From Malacoraja senta (lineage: Eukaryota): DNA of 64,000 nt. A program made the translations under genes and the position numbers. The DNA lies in the NCBI GenBank assembly GCA_038087875.1, contig CM075996.1:4156001-4220000 (forward strand), written 5' to 3'. Of this stretch, positions 384 to 61,200 are shown one piece after another. How positions within the stretch are numbered: the first letter of the stretch is position 1; each line of letters starts with the position of its first letter. The notes beneath the pieces were generated by a model. That model was not told where the DNA came from. It did no database searches and saw nothing but the letters and a program-made list of their open reading frames with translations.

Positions 384-523
384 CTTCTTCTTGCGTATGG
401 CGTGCCCACAGCCTAAAGTTGTAGGTCGACTTGTTCTATTTGATCTTATTTGATTGTGCACGCCGGGTTGATTGCGTTCGTCGAAACAGGGCGGACCACG
501 TGAAGGTTGCAATCTCCCACCCC
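384..523 (-). mobile_element. Ribozyme-headed retroposon copy
   Basis: Full-length similarity to the other three copies; TSD degenerate. Confidence 0.75.
470..523 (-). ncRNA. HDV-like ribozyme copy (A-C mismatch at the top of P2)
   Basis: Same fold as 58182-58235. Confidence 0.6.
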
Positions 524-6655: not shown

Positions 6656-28061
<21,406 letters not shown>

Positions 28062-40135: not shown

Positions 40136-40189
40136 GGGGAGGGAGATTGCAACCTTCATGTGGTCCACCCTGTTTCGACGAATGCAATC
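40136..40189 (+). ncRNA. HDV-like ribozyme copy (one P1 mismatch, L3 UUCAUGU)
   Basis: Same fold; G1 directly follows the left TSD. Confidence 0.6.
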
Positions 40190-40518
40190 AACCTGGCGTG
40201 CACAAACAGAAGATCAAAGAGAACAAGTTGTCTTACAACTTTAATAATAATATAATAATAAGTTTATTTATATAGCACATTTTCCAATTGAATTAAATCA
40301 AAAGCCAAAGTGCTTTACAGTTAACTAACCATACAAATAATAAAAAGAGATAGAAAAAATGACAACACACTATAAGAGATTTTACACAAACACGAACATC
40401 CCCCCACAGTAGAATCTACACTCTCCACTGTGAGGGAAGGCACTAAAATGTCCAGTCCTCCTCCTCCTCCTAGTCCACCCTAGTCCATCTTGCACGCCAT
40501 ACGCAAGATGAAGAGGAA
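40136..40518 (+). mobile_element. Ribozyme-headed retroposon copy interrupted by another repeat (~40243-40490)
   Basis: Perfect 12-bp TSD GATTTCATCCCA (40124-40135, 40519-40530). Confidence 0.8.
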
Positions 40519-49200: not shown

Positions 49201-52200
49201 GGACATGAGAGTAAACAGGAGCACTGGGAGACAAGCCATGCGGTCACAGGGAGAACGTGCAATCTCCACATAGGCAGTAACGGCAGTCAGTATTCTTCTT
49301 CTTCTTCTTTCGTGTGGCGTGCACAGCCTAATGTTGTTGGACAACTTGTTCTATTTGATCTTCCGTTTGTGCACGTCGAGTTGATTGCATTAGTCGAAAC
49401 AGGGCGGACCACGTGAAGGTTGAAATCTTCCACCCCGCAGTCAGTATTGAACCCGGGTCATTTGAGCATTGAGGCAGCGGCTTCAATGGCCGTGCAACTA
49501 TGCGACCCACTCCAACACCCATAACGCAGGCCTGCTCCCAGTGCATCAGATGCATTGCTGCACTCTTGTAGGTCCTATTTTTCAGATGATATGTTGAACC
49601 AAGGTCTTCCCTCTCATAAGGTCACAACCGCTGGGAGCAGAATTAGGCCATTCGGCCCATCGGGTCTACTCCGCCATTCAATCATGTCGGTGCAAAGCAT
49701 GTAATGGCACTTTGGCAAAGTGAGCAGGAAATTCACCCAGGGCTCAGATCCATCCGTCAACCACCGTCACTAAGAACTGATTATCTAATAATTATTGATT
49801 TGCTGTAAGTTGGAGCTTGTGTGCAAATTGACCTTCACCTTTCCTATATTGGATACCCATGGAGTCTGAAGAAGAGTCCTGACCCGAAACGTCGCCCAGC
49901 CACTACTTCCACAGATACTGCCTGACCCGTTGAGTTACTTCAGCACTATGTTCCACTCAAGATTCCAGCATCTGCAGGTTCCTTGTGTTTCCATTTTCCT
50001 GTATTATTACTGAGATCGCATTTTCTTGGTTGTAAAGCGCTTTGGCTGGTCTGAGGTTGTGAAATGCGCCAATTATTTTAAGAGAAAGCGCGCTCTCCTT
50101 CCTTTGAGCATGGGAGTTGCCGTTTGTGTGCGCTTATGTGCCAGTTCTGTAGTGCCAACACCAGATGCCAGAAATAGAAGGTGGTCTCTTTCACAACACA
50201 GACAACATTAATTCAACAAAGGTCAAACATTAAATAGAAAATAATATTTGCTGAGTGAGTTCATCTGCATGGGATATGGGTGACTGCTGTGACTGGCTGC
50301 ATTTTAATTGTATTTTACTGTTCCAATTCTCCCTTAGAGTCATAGAGTGATAGAGTGTGGTAACAGGCCATTCGGCCCAACTTGCCCACACCGGCCAACA
50401 TGTCCCAGCTACTGTTGTCCCACCTGCCTGCGTTTGGTTCATATCCCTCCAAACCTGTCCTATCCAATTATCTGCCTTTAACAGTCTGAAGAAGGGACTC
50501 GACCTGAAACGTCACCTATTCCTTCTCTCCAGAGACAAGACGCTGCCTGTCCTGCTGAGTTACTTCAGCTTTTTGTGTCTATCTTCATTTTAAACCAACA
50601 TCTGCAGTTCCTTCCTGCACAATTACCTGTCTTACTGGTTCTTAAACTTTGGGATAGTCCCAGCCTCAGCGACCTCCTCTGGCAGCTTGTTCCCTACACC
50701 CACCACCCTTTCTGTGAAAAGGTTACCCCTCAGATTCCTATTAAATCTTTTCCCCTTCACCTTAAACCTATGTCCGCTGGTCCTCGATTCACCTATGGGC
50801 GAGAGACGCTGTGCATCTACCTGATCTATTCCTTTAATGATTTTTTTACACGTCAATAAGATCGCCCCTCATTCTCCTGCGCTCCAGGGAATAGAGTCCC
50901 AGCCTGCTCAACCTCTCCCTATAGCTCAAACCGTCTAGTCCTGGCAACATCCTCGTAAATCTACTAGATATTTAAAAATCTCATATTTGTGTTCATACTC
51001 CTCCATGACGTCTCCCTATCTTATCTGTGTTACCTGTCCTAGTTGTACAATGTACAATTTAACTGGCACATAGGCAAAATACTATAATGCTTGAAACTGG
51101 GCACAAAAATAGAAAATGGGGGAAAATGCAGATAGTCAAACAGTAGCTGTGGAGGGAGAAACAGAGTTAATGCCTCCAATGAACTTTCATGAGGACAATT
51201 GGTCGGCGTGGATTTGATGGGCCGAAGGGCCATGTTCCATGCTGTCTCTCTAAGCTAAACCAGACTAAACTAATGTTCAAGAAGGAACTGCAGATGCTGG
51301 AAAATCGAAGGTAGACAAAAATGCTGGAGAAACTCAGCGGGTGAGGCAGCATCTATGGAGCGAAGGAAATAGGCAACGTTTCGGGCCGAAACCCTTCTTC
51401 AGACTGATGCAGGGTGTGGGGGTGGGAAGAAGAAAGGAAGAGGAGGAGCCAGAGGGCTGAGGGAAAGCTGAGAAGGGGAGCAAGGGCTACTGGAAATTGG
51501 AGAAGTCAATGTTCAAGCCGTTGGGGTGCAGACTGCCCAAGCGGAATATGAGGTGCTGCTCCTCCAATTTCCGGTGGCAATGGAGGTTGATAGTTGAAGG
51601 TGGTTGGCGGAGGTTGCAGGTAGTGGAAGGTAAGACCTCCCTGGTGGAATAAAACTGGGTGAAAAAAGGGTCTTACCTTCCACTACCTGCAACCCCTGGC
51701 AACCACCTTCAACTAGCATCGCAACCGGCTTTGACTAAAAAATTACCGATTTTTAAAACGGCAACCTATTTTTAGTCACGGCCGGTTTTGAATTTTTTGA
51801 AATAATCGGCGGAACGTAGAAGAAGAGGAAACCACTTTCGACCATTAGGGAGACTGACAAAAACCTCCGGGAACCGCACGGAAACCTTGGGTGGGGCGCA
51901 AAGTCTCCAGAGGTTTCCGTTCAGGTTTCCTAAGTGGGACAGGGGCATAACACTATCCTACACACACACGGGACAATTTACACATATACCAAGTGTACAA
52001 ACCCAAGCCAATTAACCTACAAACCTGTACGTCTTTGGAGTGCGGGAGGAAACCAAAGATCTTGGAGGAAACCCACGCGGTCACAGGTAGAATGTACAAA
52101 CTCTGAACAGACAGCACCCGTAGTCGGGATCGAACCCGGGTCTCTGGCGCTGCTAGCGCTGTAAGGCTGCAACTCTACCGCTGGGCCACCGTGCCTCCCA

Positions 52201-55200: not shown

Positions 55201-58200
55201 TGTCTATCTGCCTTCGGGATTCTTGTTCAGATGCTTCTTCCATGTTGTGAGAGTACCTGGCTCCACCACCTACTCAAGCAGTGCGTTCCACATCGCAATC
55301 ACCATCTGGGTAAAAAAATAAAGTTTTGCTCGAACCCCCAAAGTTTGGACCTCACTGTGTCCCTCGCCTCTCTCTCTCTCTCTCTGCCAGCGTTCAGCCT
55401 TCTACTCTCATCAGTTAGAAGAAGGGTCTGGCCCAAAACCAGTTGTCTATCCATTTCCCACCACAGATGCTGCCTGTCCTGCCGAGTTCCTCCAGCAGTT
55501 TGTACTTTGCTCAACATTCCAGCATCTGCAATCTCTTGTGTCTCTTCTATGGTGAATGTGTTTGATAAGACAGGATAGAGGGATTTTGTTAGAACAGTCT
55601 CAAAAAGACAGGGATTAACAATTAATTGTCTCCCATTTCTACTTTCATATTAAAGACTTGGCAGTCCAAACAGATTATCAATATAATTTTTTGCAACTTT
55701 CCAAATGGCTGCTTGAAGGAATCTGCTTCTCACTGACAAATTATAATCCAGAAAAAGGCAATGCAACTTGACTTTTATTTTTTAACACTGGACTTGTGTT
55801 TAAATGTTTGTTTGCAATCTACTTACATGAAATGAAGGTTGTACTGCTGTTTCCCCAGGCCTGCTACAAGTTGATTGATAGTTTGCTGACTGCGTCAGAT
55901 TGGATTGGAGACCTGACACTGTGTGTGGATTGTGTAGTGTCTCCGGATGCAGCAATACTGCAGGTTGGTGGGGATGTGAGCATGCAGAAGAGCTGTACTC
56001 GTTTGCACCAAGTAAGATCGATGCCGACCATCCTCAGTGCCTTAACTGGAAAGTGATCAACAATGATTTAAAATGTTGACATTATTTACAGAAGGGTTTT
56101 CACAGAACACGTTATAAGTGTCGAAAACAGATGGGTTGACGCCCAGATGAAGAATCAGTGGGCGGCACGGTGGAGCAGCGGTAGAGTTGCTGCCTCCCAG
56201 CGCCAGAGTACCCGGGTTCCATCCTGACTACGGGTGCTGTCTGTACGGAGTTTGTATGTTCTCCCTGCGACCGCGTGTGTTTTCCCTCGGTACTCCGGTT
56301 TCATCCAAAGACGCACTCCAAAGATTGGTTTCGGTAATAATTGTAAATTGTCCCTATTGGGATGGATAGTGCCAGTGTACGGGGATCGCTGGTCGGCGCG
56401 GACTGGGTGGGATAAAGAGCCTGTTTCTGCGTTGTATCTCTAAACTAGTTTTGTTACTCTTTTGTGTTCATTGACAGCAGCAAATAATCTTGGGTCAGTT
56501 ATAGCACAGATTAAATATGGAGCGACTACGCTCCCTCTTCATCCCTGTACATTGAGAATTCAGTTGGAGCACAGGTCACATTCACGCTCCCATCAAACAT
56601 TCCAGGCACAGGTTAAAAAATGTAGCAAGTCTCGTAATATTGTTCCTTCGTACATTGCCAGAGCAGGGACAGCGCAGAGAGTGAAATCACTGCTGCCCTG
56701 TACCATCAAATGCTCCCAGGCCATGCACAGCATGGGGTTAGATGCACAAAAACACAAGAAGCCGGCCATCTGGCCCTTGCCATTCCTGCAGGATCACATC
56801 CAATCTTCTGCCTTGTTCTACTTTCACTGACCCTGTTTTCTTTGACAACTTTAATATCCAGAAATCTGTTGATCTCTATTTTGAATTAATTCGGTGACTG
56901 AGCCCTCTCAGCCTTCCAAGGTTGATAATTCCATAGAGTTTGCCCCCTTAAATGAAGAGATTTCTCTCGCATCAATCCTAAATGGCCAATCCCTTATTCT
57001 AAAACTATAACCCCAACAAGAATTTTGTACGTTCTCATGAAATCGCTTCTAAATCCGGTGGAACATTGACATAGTCTACGTAGTCTCTTCTCAAATGACA
57101 AACCTGTCATTCCTGGGAACAGGTTAATGAATCTTTAGAAACATAGATACATAGAAAATAGGTGCAGGAGTAGGCCATTCGGCCCTTCGAGCCTGCACCG
57201 CCATTCAATATGATCGTGGCTGATCATCCAAACTCAGTATCCTGTACCTGCTTCTCTCCATACCCCCTGATCCCTTTAGCCACAAGGGCCACATCTAACT
57301 CCCTCTTAAATATAGCCAATGAACTGGCCTCACTACATTCTGTGGCAGAGAATTTTAGGCACAAGGAACTGCAGATACTGTTTACAAAAGGGGACACAAA
57401 GTGCTGGAGTAACTCAGCGGGAGAGGCAGCATCTCTGGAGAGCACGGATAGGTCTTGACCTCTGAACCTGAGACATGGACAGGTGACATTTCGGGTCGGG
57501 ACCTTTCCCATGTTCTCCAGAGGTGCTGCCTGGCCTGTCGAGTTACACCAGCACTTTGCGTCCTTTATAAAAAATGAATCTTTGTTGCCCCCTCTTGAGT
57601 ACGTATCCTTATTTAGGAAAGGACTCTAACATTATGCATAATTCCCCTGATGCGGTGTCATCGAGGCCTGATATAATTGCAATGAGACATCTTTACTCCT
57701 GCATTCAAATCCTTGTGTAACACAGGCCAAGGTTCCATTGGGCTTTCTATTTCCTTGTTGCACTTGTGTGTTGACTTTACAGTGACTTGGAGACAGGAAC
57801 ATCCTGGTCTCTTTCAACATCAATGTCTCCTAATTTCTCACCATTCAAATTTTTTTTTCTGCTTTTCTCTTTTGGGCACCAAAGCCAAGAAGCTTAGATT
57901 TATTTTGATGTCATAATTTGTCAACATTGCCAAAAATTCATTTGTTCCCATTCTTTGTTTCTGTCTGTTAATGTATTCTCAATTCATGCTGGTCTTGAAT
58001 GACCAACATCCTACGTGAGACATTGTTTCCACCAGCGTAGGGTACTGTTCCATTCACCTCTACCCCATTGTGGACACTGGATTTGTCTACGGAACTTCTC
58101 CTTTCTTGCGTATGGCGTGCACAGCCTAAAGTTGTCGGACAACTTGTTCTATTTGACCTATTTGTTTGTGCACGTCGGGTTGATTGCATTCGTCGAAACA

Positions 58201-61200
58201 GGGCGGACCACGTGAAGGTTGCAATCTCCCACCCCTCCACGGAACTGAAGCGCTATGATGCTGGGAACCCGTGTGGGAAGGAACTGCAGATGCTGGTTTA
58301 AATCGAAGATAGACACAAAATGCTGGAGTAACTCAACGGGACAGGCAGCATCTCTGGAGAGAAGCAACATCATCCATTTCTTCTCCCCAGGGATGCTGCC
58401 TGTCCCGCTGAGTTACTCCAGTATTTTTGTGTCTATTTAATGCTGAGAACTCTCTATCTTCCCCTTTGCTCTACCTATTGTACTTGAATTTGTCTAGATT
58501 ATATTTATATATATAGTGTGTGGGATAGCATGCAAAAAACAAAGCTTTTCACTGTACCTTGGTATATGTGCTATAATAGACCACAACCGAAACCTCAGTT
58601 TTTCTGTAAATCTAAATATATTAATCCACTGGTTCAATTCCGTGCTCTAACCTTGTTGACCATCATCCTTTGTGAGACATGTTTGAAAGGTTTCTGTAAA
58701 TCTAAATATACTCGTCCATTGTTTTCTTGCTGTTCTGTGACTCATCTTCTGAGTCCAACTCTCCAGTTTACTTGTGTAAGAAAGAACTGCAGATGCTTTT
58801 TTAAATACCTCGCCTATTCCTTCTCTCCAGAGATGCTGCCTCACCCGCTGAGTTAAGAGGCTGTCCCACTTGGGCGACCTAATCCGCGAGGGTGAGTTTG
58901 CCCTCGACTCCTACTCGCAGCATGGTCGACACGAGGTCCTAGGAGGTCTTTATAACTCTCCTTCATGCTCGAGAGTAGTCCCCGCCTACTCGAGGCCTCA
59001 GCTAGGTCGCGGCGTATTTTTCAACATGTTGATAAAAGCCCGCAAGTAAATAAAGGTCGCCATGGGGAAAAATCGATACTTTTTTTTATTCGTAGGTTTA
59101 AGTCATAGTAGGTCGGCATGTTAGTCGTAGGTAATCGAGGGTAGTCGAAGGTAGTCGTAGATAGTTTTCATCATAGTCGAAGGGAGGTCGAAGGAGATCG
59201 AAGGAGGTCGTCTTCACTCTCCACTATTTGGTGTCCAATTTTCCGGAGGTTAGTCGTAGCTAGTCTTCTACATAGTCGAAGGAGGTCTTCAACATGACAT
59301 TTTTTTCAAACTCTCCTAAACTCTTCTAAACTCGCCAATTAGGTTGCCCAAGTGGGACAGCCCCTTTCTTTACTCCAGCCCCTTTCTTTGTGTCTATCTC
59401 CAATGTACTTCCCTGGCTATGAAGGTATTGGCCACTGTCCGGGCTCCCATGTTTTGGAATGGCCTTTTGGTTATTAATGGGAACCTGATTTGTCCTGCGG
59501 GCAGACAGACACAAAATGCTGGACTAACTCAGCGGGTCAGGCAGCGTCTCTGGAGAAAAGGAATAGGTGACGATTCGGCTCGAGACTCTTCTTCATGTGC
59601 TGAGGGCAATGTGCGAGGAAACCAAGTTGGAATCCAAGGTCATAAGGAATAGGAGTAAATTAGGCCATTCGGCCCATCAAGTTGACTCTGCCATTCAATC
59701 ATGGCTGATCTATCTCTCCATCCTAACCCCATTCTCCTATGTCATATGTCCTTGTAAATATCAAACCAAATTTATGTACTCAATCTGGATGAATTTAGAA
59801 ACAGCAGATCATCATAATCTGTGGACTAAATGCACCCTTAACTATTATTGCTCCCAGGGTGAGACCTGACAATGTCTGCTCTTCTGGGTGAATGTAAAAT
59901 AGCTCACATCTTTGAATAGGAGCAGTGGTGTTCTCCCTGGAATCCTGAGCTATATTTTTCACTCAGCCAAATTCCTGGCCATTATAACTGTGTGGGGGCT
60001 TGTTGTGCACAATTCCCTACGTGGTTTCCTACATTTTGACGGTGTCTGCAGGATAAGTATCCCTATAAATAGGCCGTAAAGTGGTTTGGGAAATCCCCGA
60101 AAACAAGGTGGGTAAGTTCTATAGAAATGCAAGTTCCTTGTATATTTACTAAAGTTGCTCATTATTTCTGGTCCACTTCAGGAAGCACTGGAAGTATTTG
60201 TGGCTGCGGCACAGAGCAACTTTGGGTGCCTGATGGTCATGGGCAAAGTGGTTGTGGCCACGGAGAAGTGGTGGCGACTGGCCGCCCAGGAGGTGGTTCT
60301 GTTGACGTGGCTGGTTGGATCGCTGGCACCCAACTCATCACGGGACTACCCCATCTACTTGCCACAAGGCAGCCCTACTGTAAGTAACAGATAATCATCT
60401 ACAAACTAGAGCAAAAAAAAACCCAACCTGCTGGAGGAACTTAACGGGCCATGCAACATCTGCGGAGGAAAATGGTCAGACGACGTTTTGGTTGAGATCT
60501 TTCTTCAGATTCGATAGTCTGAAGAAGGGTCCCGACCTGAAATGTCCTGTCATTCTATCGAGAAGCTTGTAGTTCTATTACTTGTTCTATTTCACAAGCA
60601 GGAATCTTGGGAACATAGACTTAATTGTTGTCAGCATAATACTTCAGCAAGGAATGACTCTCTTCCTGATTGCACCATTAGATTCTTAACAAATGTCAAA
60701 ATACATTCATTATGAATAGAGAAGTTGTATGTTGAAAAGTAATATGCTGACTATCTCAGTATGATGAAACCATAGATGTGTTCCGGCTTGAACTGTCCCT
60801 CTCTGTCTTCAGTTTAATTTCTCCGATGCTGTGTAAAATCATAAGCGATAGGAGCAGGAATTAGGCCATTCGGCCCATCAAGTCTATTCCGCCATTCAAT
60901 CATGGCTGGCCTAGCCATTGGCTTTGCCAAAATGGCATGGGCTTTTGCTGATGTACAGCTCTTGACACATCTGACCATTCTTCATAGCAAGCCTCAAGTA
61001 TTGGCTAGCTGTTCAACTTTGAAGGATTTGCAATCAAATCTGTTGCCTTCTCTCCAATATCCGACAACAAGCAATAGTAGCCTCTTGAGTAAGATAGACC
61101 AAAAGGCATCTGGGTGGTTAGATGACACAATTGATTTCGTGGAGGGAAATTGAATACAAAAGAGCTTAAGCCTCAGGTACATAAAGTATTGGCAGGATCT

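What the first reader, a model, noticed from the sequence alone, without database searches (positions are those of the whole stretch)
58097..58235. Tiny retroposon headed by a complete minimal HDV-like ribozyme
Seen: four ~140-bp copies (384-523 -, 40136-40518 +, 49295-49436 -, 58097-58235 -), three with 11-12 bp TSDs. The first 54 nt give P1 GGGGUGG/CCGCCCU with a G1-U wobble, P2 GAUUGCA/UGCAAUC, P3 ACC/GGU with L3 UUCACGU, a vestigial P4 (U-UUCG-A) and J4/2 CGAA or CUAA. In the TSD-bearing copies the element starts exactly at G1, the predicted cleavage site. There are no Pol III A/B boxes. Known: HDV-like ribozymes define the 5' ends of R2, RTE and Ingi/L1Tc-type retroelements. Inferred: a promoterless non-autonomous element that cuts itself out of host read-through RNA and borrows an RT, possibly from Vingi given the CCATACGC-(AAG)n tail. 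It would be a very small natural HDV-type ribozyme. I cannot tell whether it has been described.
Basis: partly seen in the sequence, partly recalled or inferred. Interest (0 to 1): 0.85.

Follow-up and report, generated by a model that had tools for sequence, protein, structure and literature searches.

The report
Ribozyme-headed mini-retroposon from Vingi LINE
This 139-base jumping element, present in thousands of copies in a cartilaginous-fish genome, is a cut-down copy of a Vingi-type retrotransposon, and both begin with a 54-base RNA fold predicted to cut itself free of host RNA, a stripped-down form so far reported in phages and a close look-alike of the mammalian CPEB3 brain-gene ribozyme.

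Summary
Observation confirmed. All four copies begin at G1 of a complete HDV-type fold. The family has at least 3,330 copies, and 36 of 45 copies picked by an internal anchor reach position 1-2.

I found the parent in the same genome: a ~3-kb single-ORF, RNase-H-less (Vingi-type) LINE with the same 54-nt head and the same 3' end. The element is therefore a short internally deleted derivative (SIDE), not a SINE.

A second family of ~160-180 nt carries a diverged 52-nt head. Of 17 aligned pairs, 8 show compensatory changes and none is broken. Both heads lack P4 and match phage theta ribozymes almost domain for domain.

The second head hits the Rfam CPEB3 model. A published gharial Vingi 5' end matches the CPEB3 consensus at 43 of 45 positions outside P4 (counted by eye), which points to a Vingi origin for the mammalian CPEB3 ribozyme.

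Cleavage is untested, and 'promoterless' is not shown. Ribozyme-headed SIDEs are known (R2, L1Tc/ingi). A Vingi ribozyme and a P4-less one in a vertebrate were not found in 10 literature searches, but Repbase, Dfam and two key papers could not be consulted.

The parts
58182..58235 (-). 54-nt P4-less HDV-like ribozyme fold; G1 = 58235, predicted cleavage between 58236 and 58235
   Evidence: same head in the parent LINE
58229..58235 (-). P1 5' strand (pairs with 58200-58206; G1.U36 and U5.G32 wobbles)
   Evidence: each P1 pair kept in 94-100% of the 84-100 copies scored
58220..58226 (-). P2 5' strand (pairs with 58182-58188)
   Evidence: 5 of 7 pairs compensatory against family B
58207..58219 (-). 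P3 and L3 (U20, C22, A23, G25 as in CPEB3 numbering)
58193..58199 (-). G37-U38 (P1.1 partners) plus a 5-nt linker in place of P4
   Evidence: C22-G37 paired in 92% of 108 copies
58189..58192 (-). J4/2 with the predicted catalytic C44 at 58192
   Evidence: C in 144 of 156 copies; second position varies G/U/A
58158..58181 (-). Rest of the parent LINE 5' UTR, including the 5' arm (58167-58174) of an end-to-end stem
58136..58157 (-). Remodelled junction not found in the parent's ends; supplies the 5' arm of an inner hairpin
58108..58135 (-). Parent LINE 3' end: last codons and stop (TAG at 58126-58128), 3' arm of the end-to-end stem (58116-58123)
58097..58107 (-). Decayed (AAG)n tail
58236..58246 (-). 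5' copy of the 11-bp target-site duplication, abutting G1
58086..58096 (-). 3' copy of the target-site duplication (one mismatch)
384..523 (-). Second copy of the element
40136..40518 (+). Third copy, 12-bp TSD, interrupted by an insertion at about 40244-40490
49295..49436 (-). Fourth copy, 12-bp TSD, J4/2 variant CUAA

Best explanation
The element is a short internally deleted derivative of a Vingi-type LINE that keeps the LINE's first ~78 and last ~30-40 bases, and its first 54 bases fold into a P4-less HDV-like ribozyme that is predicted to cut it out of host transcripts at G1. Shown: shared ends with the LINE, TSDs, thousands of copies, 5' ends clustered at G1, and compensatory changes between two families. 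Inferred: a copy inside a host Pol II transcript self-cleaves 5' of G1 using C44; the freed RNA closes an 8-11 bp stem between its 5' UTR and its 3' end; the Vingi protein, supplied in trans, binds the 3' stem-loop and (AAG)n tail and inserts a copy by target-primed reverse transcription.
For: Parent: 5'-truncated LINE copies share the element's 3' end, including the ORF's last codons. A near full-length copy (L395/L403, G000:C8, 2,804 bp, 11-bp TSD) starts with the same head, 4 differences in 68 nt. It is colinear over aa 29-1019 with an intact 1,019-aa APE+RT protein that has no RNase H (P0001). 5' ends: 29 of 45 anchor-selected copies reach position 1, 36 reach 1-2, 43 reach within 10. Five independent LINE copies with inverted 5' pieces all stop at positions 5-11 and none carries upstream sequence. 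Contigs from four other runs break off into unlike flanks at G1. Fold: family B (1,175 exact hits of a 13-nt P3/L3 motif, reversed control 1) differs from this family by 8 two-sided changes in 17 pairs, 0 one-sided, 0 broken; 1 of 200,000 shuffles keeps all pairs. Apart from CpG decay at 31, 41 and 42, common variants in the head fall at positions 8, 32 (U.G to U-A) and 45, which keep the fold. Domain lengths equal those of the commonest theta ribozyme except for a 5- versus 6-nt linker, and P3 is identical.
Against: No cleavage data. P1.1 has one C-G pair plus U.U, against two C-G pairs in the theta example, and P4 is missing, so the fold may be slow or dead. Pseudoknot-blind folding gives no stability gain (z +0.7 to +1.5 in 6 of 6 folds). 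No Rfam hit for this family. Only 39 of 77 scorable copies keep the whole core. The C44/G45 CpG asymmetry is small (6 against 13). Full-length 5' ends are expected of any 134-nt element and of a transcription start at G1. All parent copies seen are broken (longest open frame 442 aa in 30 loci). The clade name rests on architecture, not on a tree with named Vingi sequences.
Confidence: 0.77

Rival explanations
1. The head is a catalytically dead or very slow relic of a Vingi ribozyme, kept as an internal Pol II promoter or a protein-binding fold, so that transcription start, not cleavage, sets the 5' end.
For: Pr77 of L1Tc is also an internal promoter. P4 is lost and P1.1 is weak; family B has only a 6-bp P1. 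Clustered 5' ends do not tell the two apart.
Against: Both families and the parent keep G1.U, U20, C22, G25, G37, the J4/2 C and the following As while P1, P2 and P3 letters change in pairs. A DNA-level promoter would not keep base pairs. P4-less natural ribozymes are active.
Confidence: 0.15
2. The head is an active ribozyme and also an internal promoter, as in L1Tc, so the element does not depend on host read-through alone.
For: Precedent in the sister clade Ingi/L1Tc.
Against: No promoter evidence here. This rival is compatible with the best explanation and differs only in the source of the transcript.
Confidence: 0.2
3. The element is an ordinary Pol III SINE, or is moved by the young Nimb LINE of this genome, which also ends in a stem-loop and (AAG)n.
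For: Intact 1,277-aa Nimb ORFs with (AAG)n tails exist. The linker holds a B-box-like TTCGA.
Against: No A box, and the B-like word fails two defined positions. Both ends are shared with the Vingi-type LINE and not with Nimb.
Confidence: 0.03

Closest known systems
Ribozyme-headed SIDEs: R2 SIDEs, NARTc/RIME and SIDERs of the L1Tc/ingi clade (PMC6765202, PMC4035085; passages read)
   Same: 5' and 3' ends of a parent LINE, no ORF, HDV-like ribozyme at the 5' end, moved in trans.
   Different: Vertebrate host, Vingi-type parent, 119-140 nt in all; 54-nt head without P4 against the 77-nt Pr77 with P4.
Vingi LINEs and their bipartite non-autonomous derivatives (PMC5786205, passages, section 23 and supplement passages; PMC13708176, passages)
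   Same: Single ORF, APE+RT, no RNase H, about 3 kb; produces short derivatives with both ends.
   Different: [quoted passage not shown] The gharial Vingi-2_Gav 5' end printed in its supplement fits the HDV fold with a P4; the heads here have none.
Minimal HDV-like and theta ribozymes (PMC10879173, passages, first part of Results, first part of one supplement table)
   Same: P4 absent; P1 7, J1/2 2, P2 7, P3 3, L3 7, J4/2 4; same P3; 54 against 55 nt.
   Different: Theta ribozymes lie in gut phages next to tRNAs and the example seen has two C-G pairs in P1.1. Here: a vertebrate retroelement, and one C-G plus U.U.
Mammalian CPEB3 ribozyme (Rfam RF00622; PMC4836649 and PMC8233481, passages)
   Same: Identical L3, G-U after P1, J4/2 CGAA, one-pair P1.1. 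Family B matches the Rfam model (E 9.9e-7, 30.2 bits, below the gathering score of 35; two more copies).
   Different: CPEB3 is a single intronic copy with P4. Family A differs in P2 and P3 letters and has no Rfam hit.

Membership tests
HDV-like ribozymes | Nested double pseudoknot: P1, P2, P3, P1.1 can all form | tested here: met
   P1.1 is one C-G plus U.U as in CPEB3
HDV-like ribozymes | G1 in a G.U wobble; U20, C22, G25 in L3; C first in J4/2 | tested here: met
   same in the parent and family B
HDV-like ribozymes | Covariation in the helices | tested here: met
   8 of 17 pairs between families A and B (my own structural register); almost none within family A
HDV-like ribozymes | Match to an Rfam ribozyme model at gathering level | tested here: not met
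   family A none (and L395); family B RF00622 at 27-30 bits, below 35
HDV-like ribozymes | Mg2+-dependent self-cleavage 5' of G1, lost with C-to-U | not testable with these tools
   needs a bench assay
Theta ribozymes | P4-less minimal fold | tested here: met
   domain lengths
Theta ribozymes | Phage location next to tRNA; two C-G pairs in P1.1 | tested here: not met
   flanks are unrelated host sites with TSDs; L3 starts UUC and is followed by GU
SIDE (bipartite non-autonomous LINE) | 5' end and 3' end taken from one autonomous LINE | tested here: met
SIDE (bipartite non-autonomous LINE) | No ORF, TSDs, many dispersed copies | tested here: met
Vingi clade (parent) | Single ORF with APE and RT | tested here: met
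   RVT_1 in 2 of 7 fragments scanned; the APE fragments gave no Pfam hit alone but align to the APE part of P0001
Vingi clade (parent) | No RNase H | tested here: met
   none in the C-terminal fragments, present in the Nimb control; PF00075 absent from all 120 listed homologues
Vingi clade (parent) | RT tree placement with named Vingi and Ingi elements | not tested
   no named reference sequences were available in the tools
SINE (Pol III) | tRNA, 7SL or 5S head with internal A/B boxes | tested here: not met
   no Rfam RNA-gene hit

The most novel reading that the evidence does not exclude
Vingi retrotransposons carry a 5' HDV-like ribozyme. In cartilaginous fish two lineages have shrunk it to active 52-54 nt P4-less forms, the first minimal HDV-like ribozymes in a vertebrate, spread in about 10^4 copies by promoterless mini-elements whose ends pair. 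The mammalian CPEB3 ribozyme is a domesticated 5' end of such a Vingi element.
Probability: 0.5. Interest if true: 0.88.

Novelty: new variant of a known kind. Interest (0 to 1): 0.74.

Why it matters
It adds Vingi to the LINE clades with 5' ribozymes. All four clades known to spawn bipartite non-autonomous elements (RTE, Ingi, R2, Vingi) would then have one, which bears on a question left open in PMC5786205.

It moves P4-less minimal HDV-like ribozymes from phages into a vertebrate genome, with thousands of natural variants to assay.

It offers an origin and outgroups for the CPEB3 ribozyme, which PMC8233481 says has not been found outside mammals.

Vingi UTRs are used in gene-writing platforms (PMC13708176), so a self-cleaving 5' module and end-to-end pairing bear on template design.

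Tried and rejected
Four exclusion-pattern searches and a tail search missed the parent because their anchors and exclusions lay on the wrong side of the junction; one search found it. PF14529 over the genome returned Nimb and other LINEs in the 50 loci examined, no Vingi. The parent of family B was not found in one search (100 of 232 matches listed, 30 loci read).

MFE folding cannot represent the pseudoknot and gave no support. The MAFFT alignment held one family B locus on the wrong strand and misregistered P1 and P3, so pairs were counted in a structural register in Python.

Sequencing runs: no RNA holder listed. The four runs laid are contigs whose RNA status is a guess, so they say nothing on expression or cleavage.

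Earlier findings of this scan: four look-ups, nothing returned.

Kojima 2011 (the Vingi description) and Ruminski 2011 are not held. Riccitelli 2014 was not read. Repbase, Dfam and patents cannot be searched here; any of these may already note a Vingi ribozyme or this family. One theta supplement file is a picture PDF, and the descriptor figure was not seen.
Full report
Observation. A descriptor for the HDV fold finds these four sites and none in 10 simulated windows. Three copies have 11-12 bp TSDs touching G1; the fourth has a 7-bp repeat 4 nt away. There are no Pol III boxes and no Rfam ribozyme hit. A cathepsin D-like exon in the window has elasmobranch proteins as its best named relatives, so the host is taken to be a cartilaginous fish.

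Family size and ends. One internal 20-mer has 3,330 exact matches in the 1.94-Gb assembly, reversed control 0. This is a lower bound: by the sequences only 1 of the 4 window copies holds it exactly. Twenty 10-kb stretches picked without regard to content held 1 copy, which suggests an order of 10^4. I fetched 40 loci by that internal word alone, giving 45 copies, three pairs of them duplicated segments. Of these 29 reach position 1, 36 reach 1-2 and 43 reach within 10 nt; 20 of 37 TSD calls end at offset 0 or +1. Short elements are usually full length anyway, so this fits cleavage at G1 without proving it. The stretch is held, with half its words or more, by 16 runs under 9 coded organism labels, one of which may be the source. 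In four runs laid, contigs break off into unlike flanks at G1. The head variants listed there are at positions 32, 39, 42, 45 and 54, none at C44.

The parent. A pattern anchored in the 3' end and excluding the element's middle gave 294 matches, most of the 100 listed with one other upstream sequence. It is the end of an ORF with a CCHC-type finger whose last codons and stop are the element's positions 101-110. These copies are 5'-truncated at varied lengths. A probe from the start of the RT gave 36 matches. Among the 30 loci read, 9 (8 independent) hold the same head. L395/L403 is near full length with an 11-bp TSD: head, about 50 nt of UTR, ATG, then an APE-type start. It is colinear with P0001, an intact 1,019-aa APE+RT protein 71% identical to the RT fragment used as query. 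RNase H is absent from the fragments and from all 120 listed homologues, and present in the Nimb control. Single ORF, APE and no RNase H is the description of Vingi in PMC13708176 (passages); no tree was built. Copies are 83-94% alike and all broken, so the parent looks inactive now. A 119-nt subfamily and others keep the parent's UTR further, while the main subfamily has a remodelled middle. Five independent LINE copies have an inverted 5' piece that ends at positions 5, 7, 7, 9 and 11. L402 has the full twin-priming layout, 230 to 11 inverted, then 232 onward. The template RNA therefore ended near G1.

The fold. Numbered from G1, U20, C22, A23 and G25 coincide with CPEB3 positions named in PMC4836649 (passages), whose P1.1 is one G-C and one U-U pair. 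With U38 in P1.1, five bases join it to the J4/2 C, so there is no P4. The commonest theta ribozyme in the supplement of PMC10879173 (first of 361 parts) has the same domain lengths but a 6-nt linker, the same P3, and a J4/2 equal to the parent's; it has two C-G pairs in P1.1. That paper found minimal forms nearly only in phages and reports no eukaryotic hits from its human, mouse and protist set. Within family A, apart from CpG decay at 31, 41 and 42, the frequent variants sit at positions 8, 32 and 45 and keep the fold. Half the scorable copies, 39 of 77, are intact. Nearest-neighbour folding gives no support.

A second family gives the covariation. The supplement of PMC5786205 prints the 5' end of gharial Vingi-2_Gav, which by eye fits the HDV fold with a P4. 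Its 13-nt P3/L3 word has 1,175 exact matches in this genome, control 1. All 30 loci read belong to a second family (B) of about 160-180 nt with an (AAG)n tail; 45 of 57 heads reach position 1 and 26 of 57 gave a TSD call. Its head is 52 nt with a 6-bp P1, the same L3 and a 5-nt linker. Over 17 aligned pairs, 8 differ on both sides and still pair (5 in P2, 2 in P3, 1 in P1), 9 are the same, none is broken (115 A rows, 29 B rows). This is two lineages, not many, and the register is mine. B's parent was not found; its link to Vingi is inferred from the head and from a 3' end built like A's.

End pairing. In A, positions 62-69 pair with the 3' end in 93-100% of copies. The change at 61 (A in the parent, G in most short copies) and the common change at 59 each add a pair. 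The parent's two ends can form the same 8-bp stem across 3 kb (16 and 98 of 2,000 shuffles as good for two copies). B forms a stem of other sequence, weaker by this test (124 of 2,000). I infer that end pairing helps explain why both ends are kept; the core word is a palindrome, which weakens the point.

The CPEB3 link. Family B heads match Rfam RF00622 (E 9.9e-7, 30.2 bits, gathering 35; also 2 of 3 sources, the third being the family A parent). Laying the Rfam consensus beside Vingi-2_Gav, by eye, gives 32 of 34 identical positions from 2 to 35 and 11 of 11 from the J4/2 C onward. [quoted passage not shown] The simplest reading is that the CPEB3 ribozyme is the kept 5' end of an old Vingi insertion; flanks and empty sites were not examined.

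What is in print. Ribozyme-headed SIDEs are established. PMC5786205 section 23 names RTE, Ingi, Vingi and R2 as the clades with bipartite derivatives, and omits Vingi from the six clades with ribozymes. Ten searches showed no title or abstract describing this family, a Vingi ribozyme or a Vingi origin of CPEB3. Of the listed papers I read passages of thirteen, none whole. Kojima 2011 and Ruminski 2011 were not available, and Repbase, Dfam and patents were not searchable, so absence from print is not established.

Verdict. The element is a Vingi-type SIDE (about 0.95). Its head is likely an active minimal HDV-like ribozyme in source copies (about 0.78). It is a new variant of a known kind. The added interest lies in the P4-less fold in a vertebrate and in the testable Vingi origin of the CPEB3 ribozyme.

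Noticed in passing
L260-L319, e.g. L283:1486-1650 (+); one more copy in L099: Second ribozyme-headed mini-retroposon family (B), 52-nt head with 6-bp P1, at least 1,175 copies, two subfamilies; not in this window; parent not found.
   Followed up: partly
Rfam RF00622 consensus against Vingi-2_Gav in the PMC5786205 supplement: 43 of 45 positions identical outside P4, by eye. The alligator SINE2-1_AMi printed there carries the same module behind a tRNA head, with changes in P1 and L3.
   Followed up: partly
L158:2354-3215 and L256:2580-2990: 3' fragments of another Vingi-type family (37% to P0001) with a different 3' UTR and an (AAG)n tail; its 5' end is unknown.
   Followed up: no
L224, L213, L220: Young Nimb-like LINE with intact 401-aa ORF1 and 1,277-aa ORF2 (APE, RT, RNase H), ending in a nested stem-loop and (AAG)n.
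   Followed up: partly
L377, L381, L384, L392/L393 (L402), L398: Five of 29 independent long parent copies have 5' inversions; three of the inverted pieces begin at positions 75-81, close to the junction of the short element.
   Followed up: partly
L002-L030 and L131-L170: The base before G1 is T in 26 of 49 copies, and some copies have 1-3 extra bases between TSD and G1; cause unexplained.
   Followed up: no
window 16985-17155 and about 19910-19990 (-): Exons of a cathepsin D-like gene (Asp and A1 propeptide domains).
   Followed up: partly
window 10200-12250: About 2 kb of G- and A-rich simple repeat on the + strand, open in all six frames.
   Followed up: no
G000:C8:36531395 and C18:2905262: Copies whose 5' part is replaced by a reverse complement of their own 3' tail at the palindromic stem word.
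   Followed up: no
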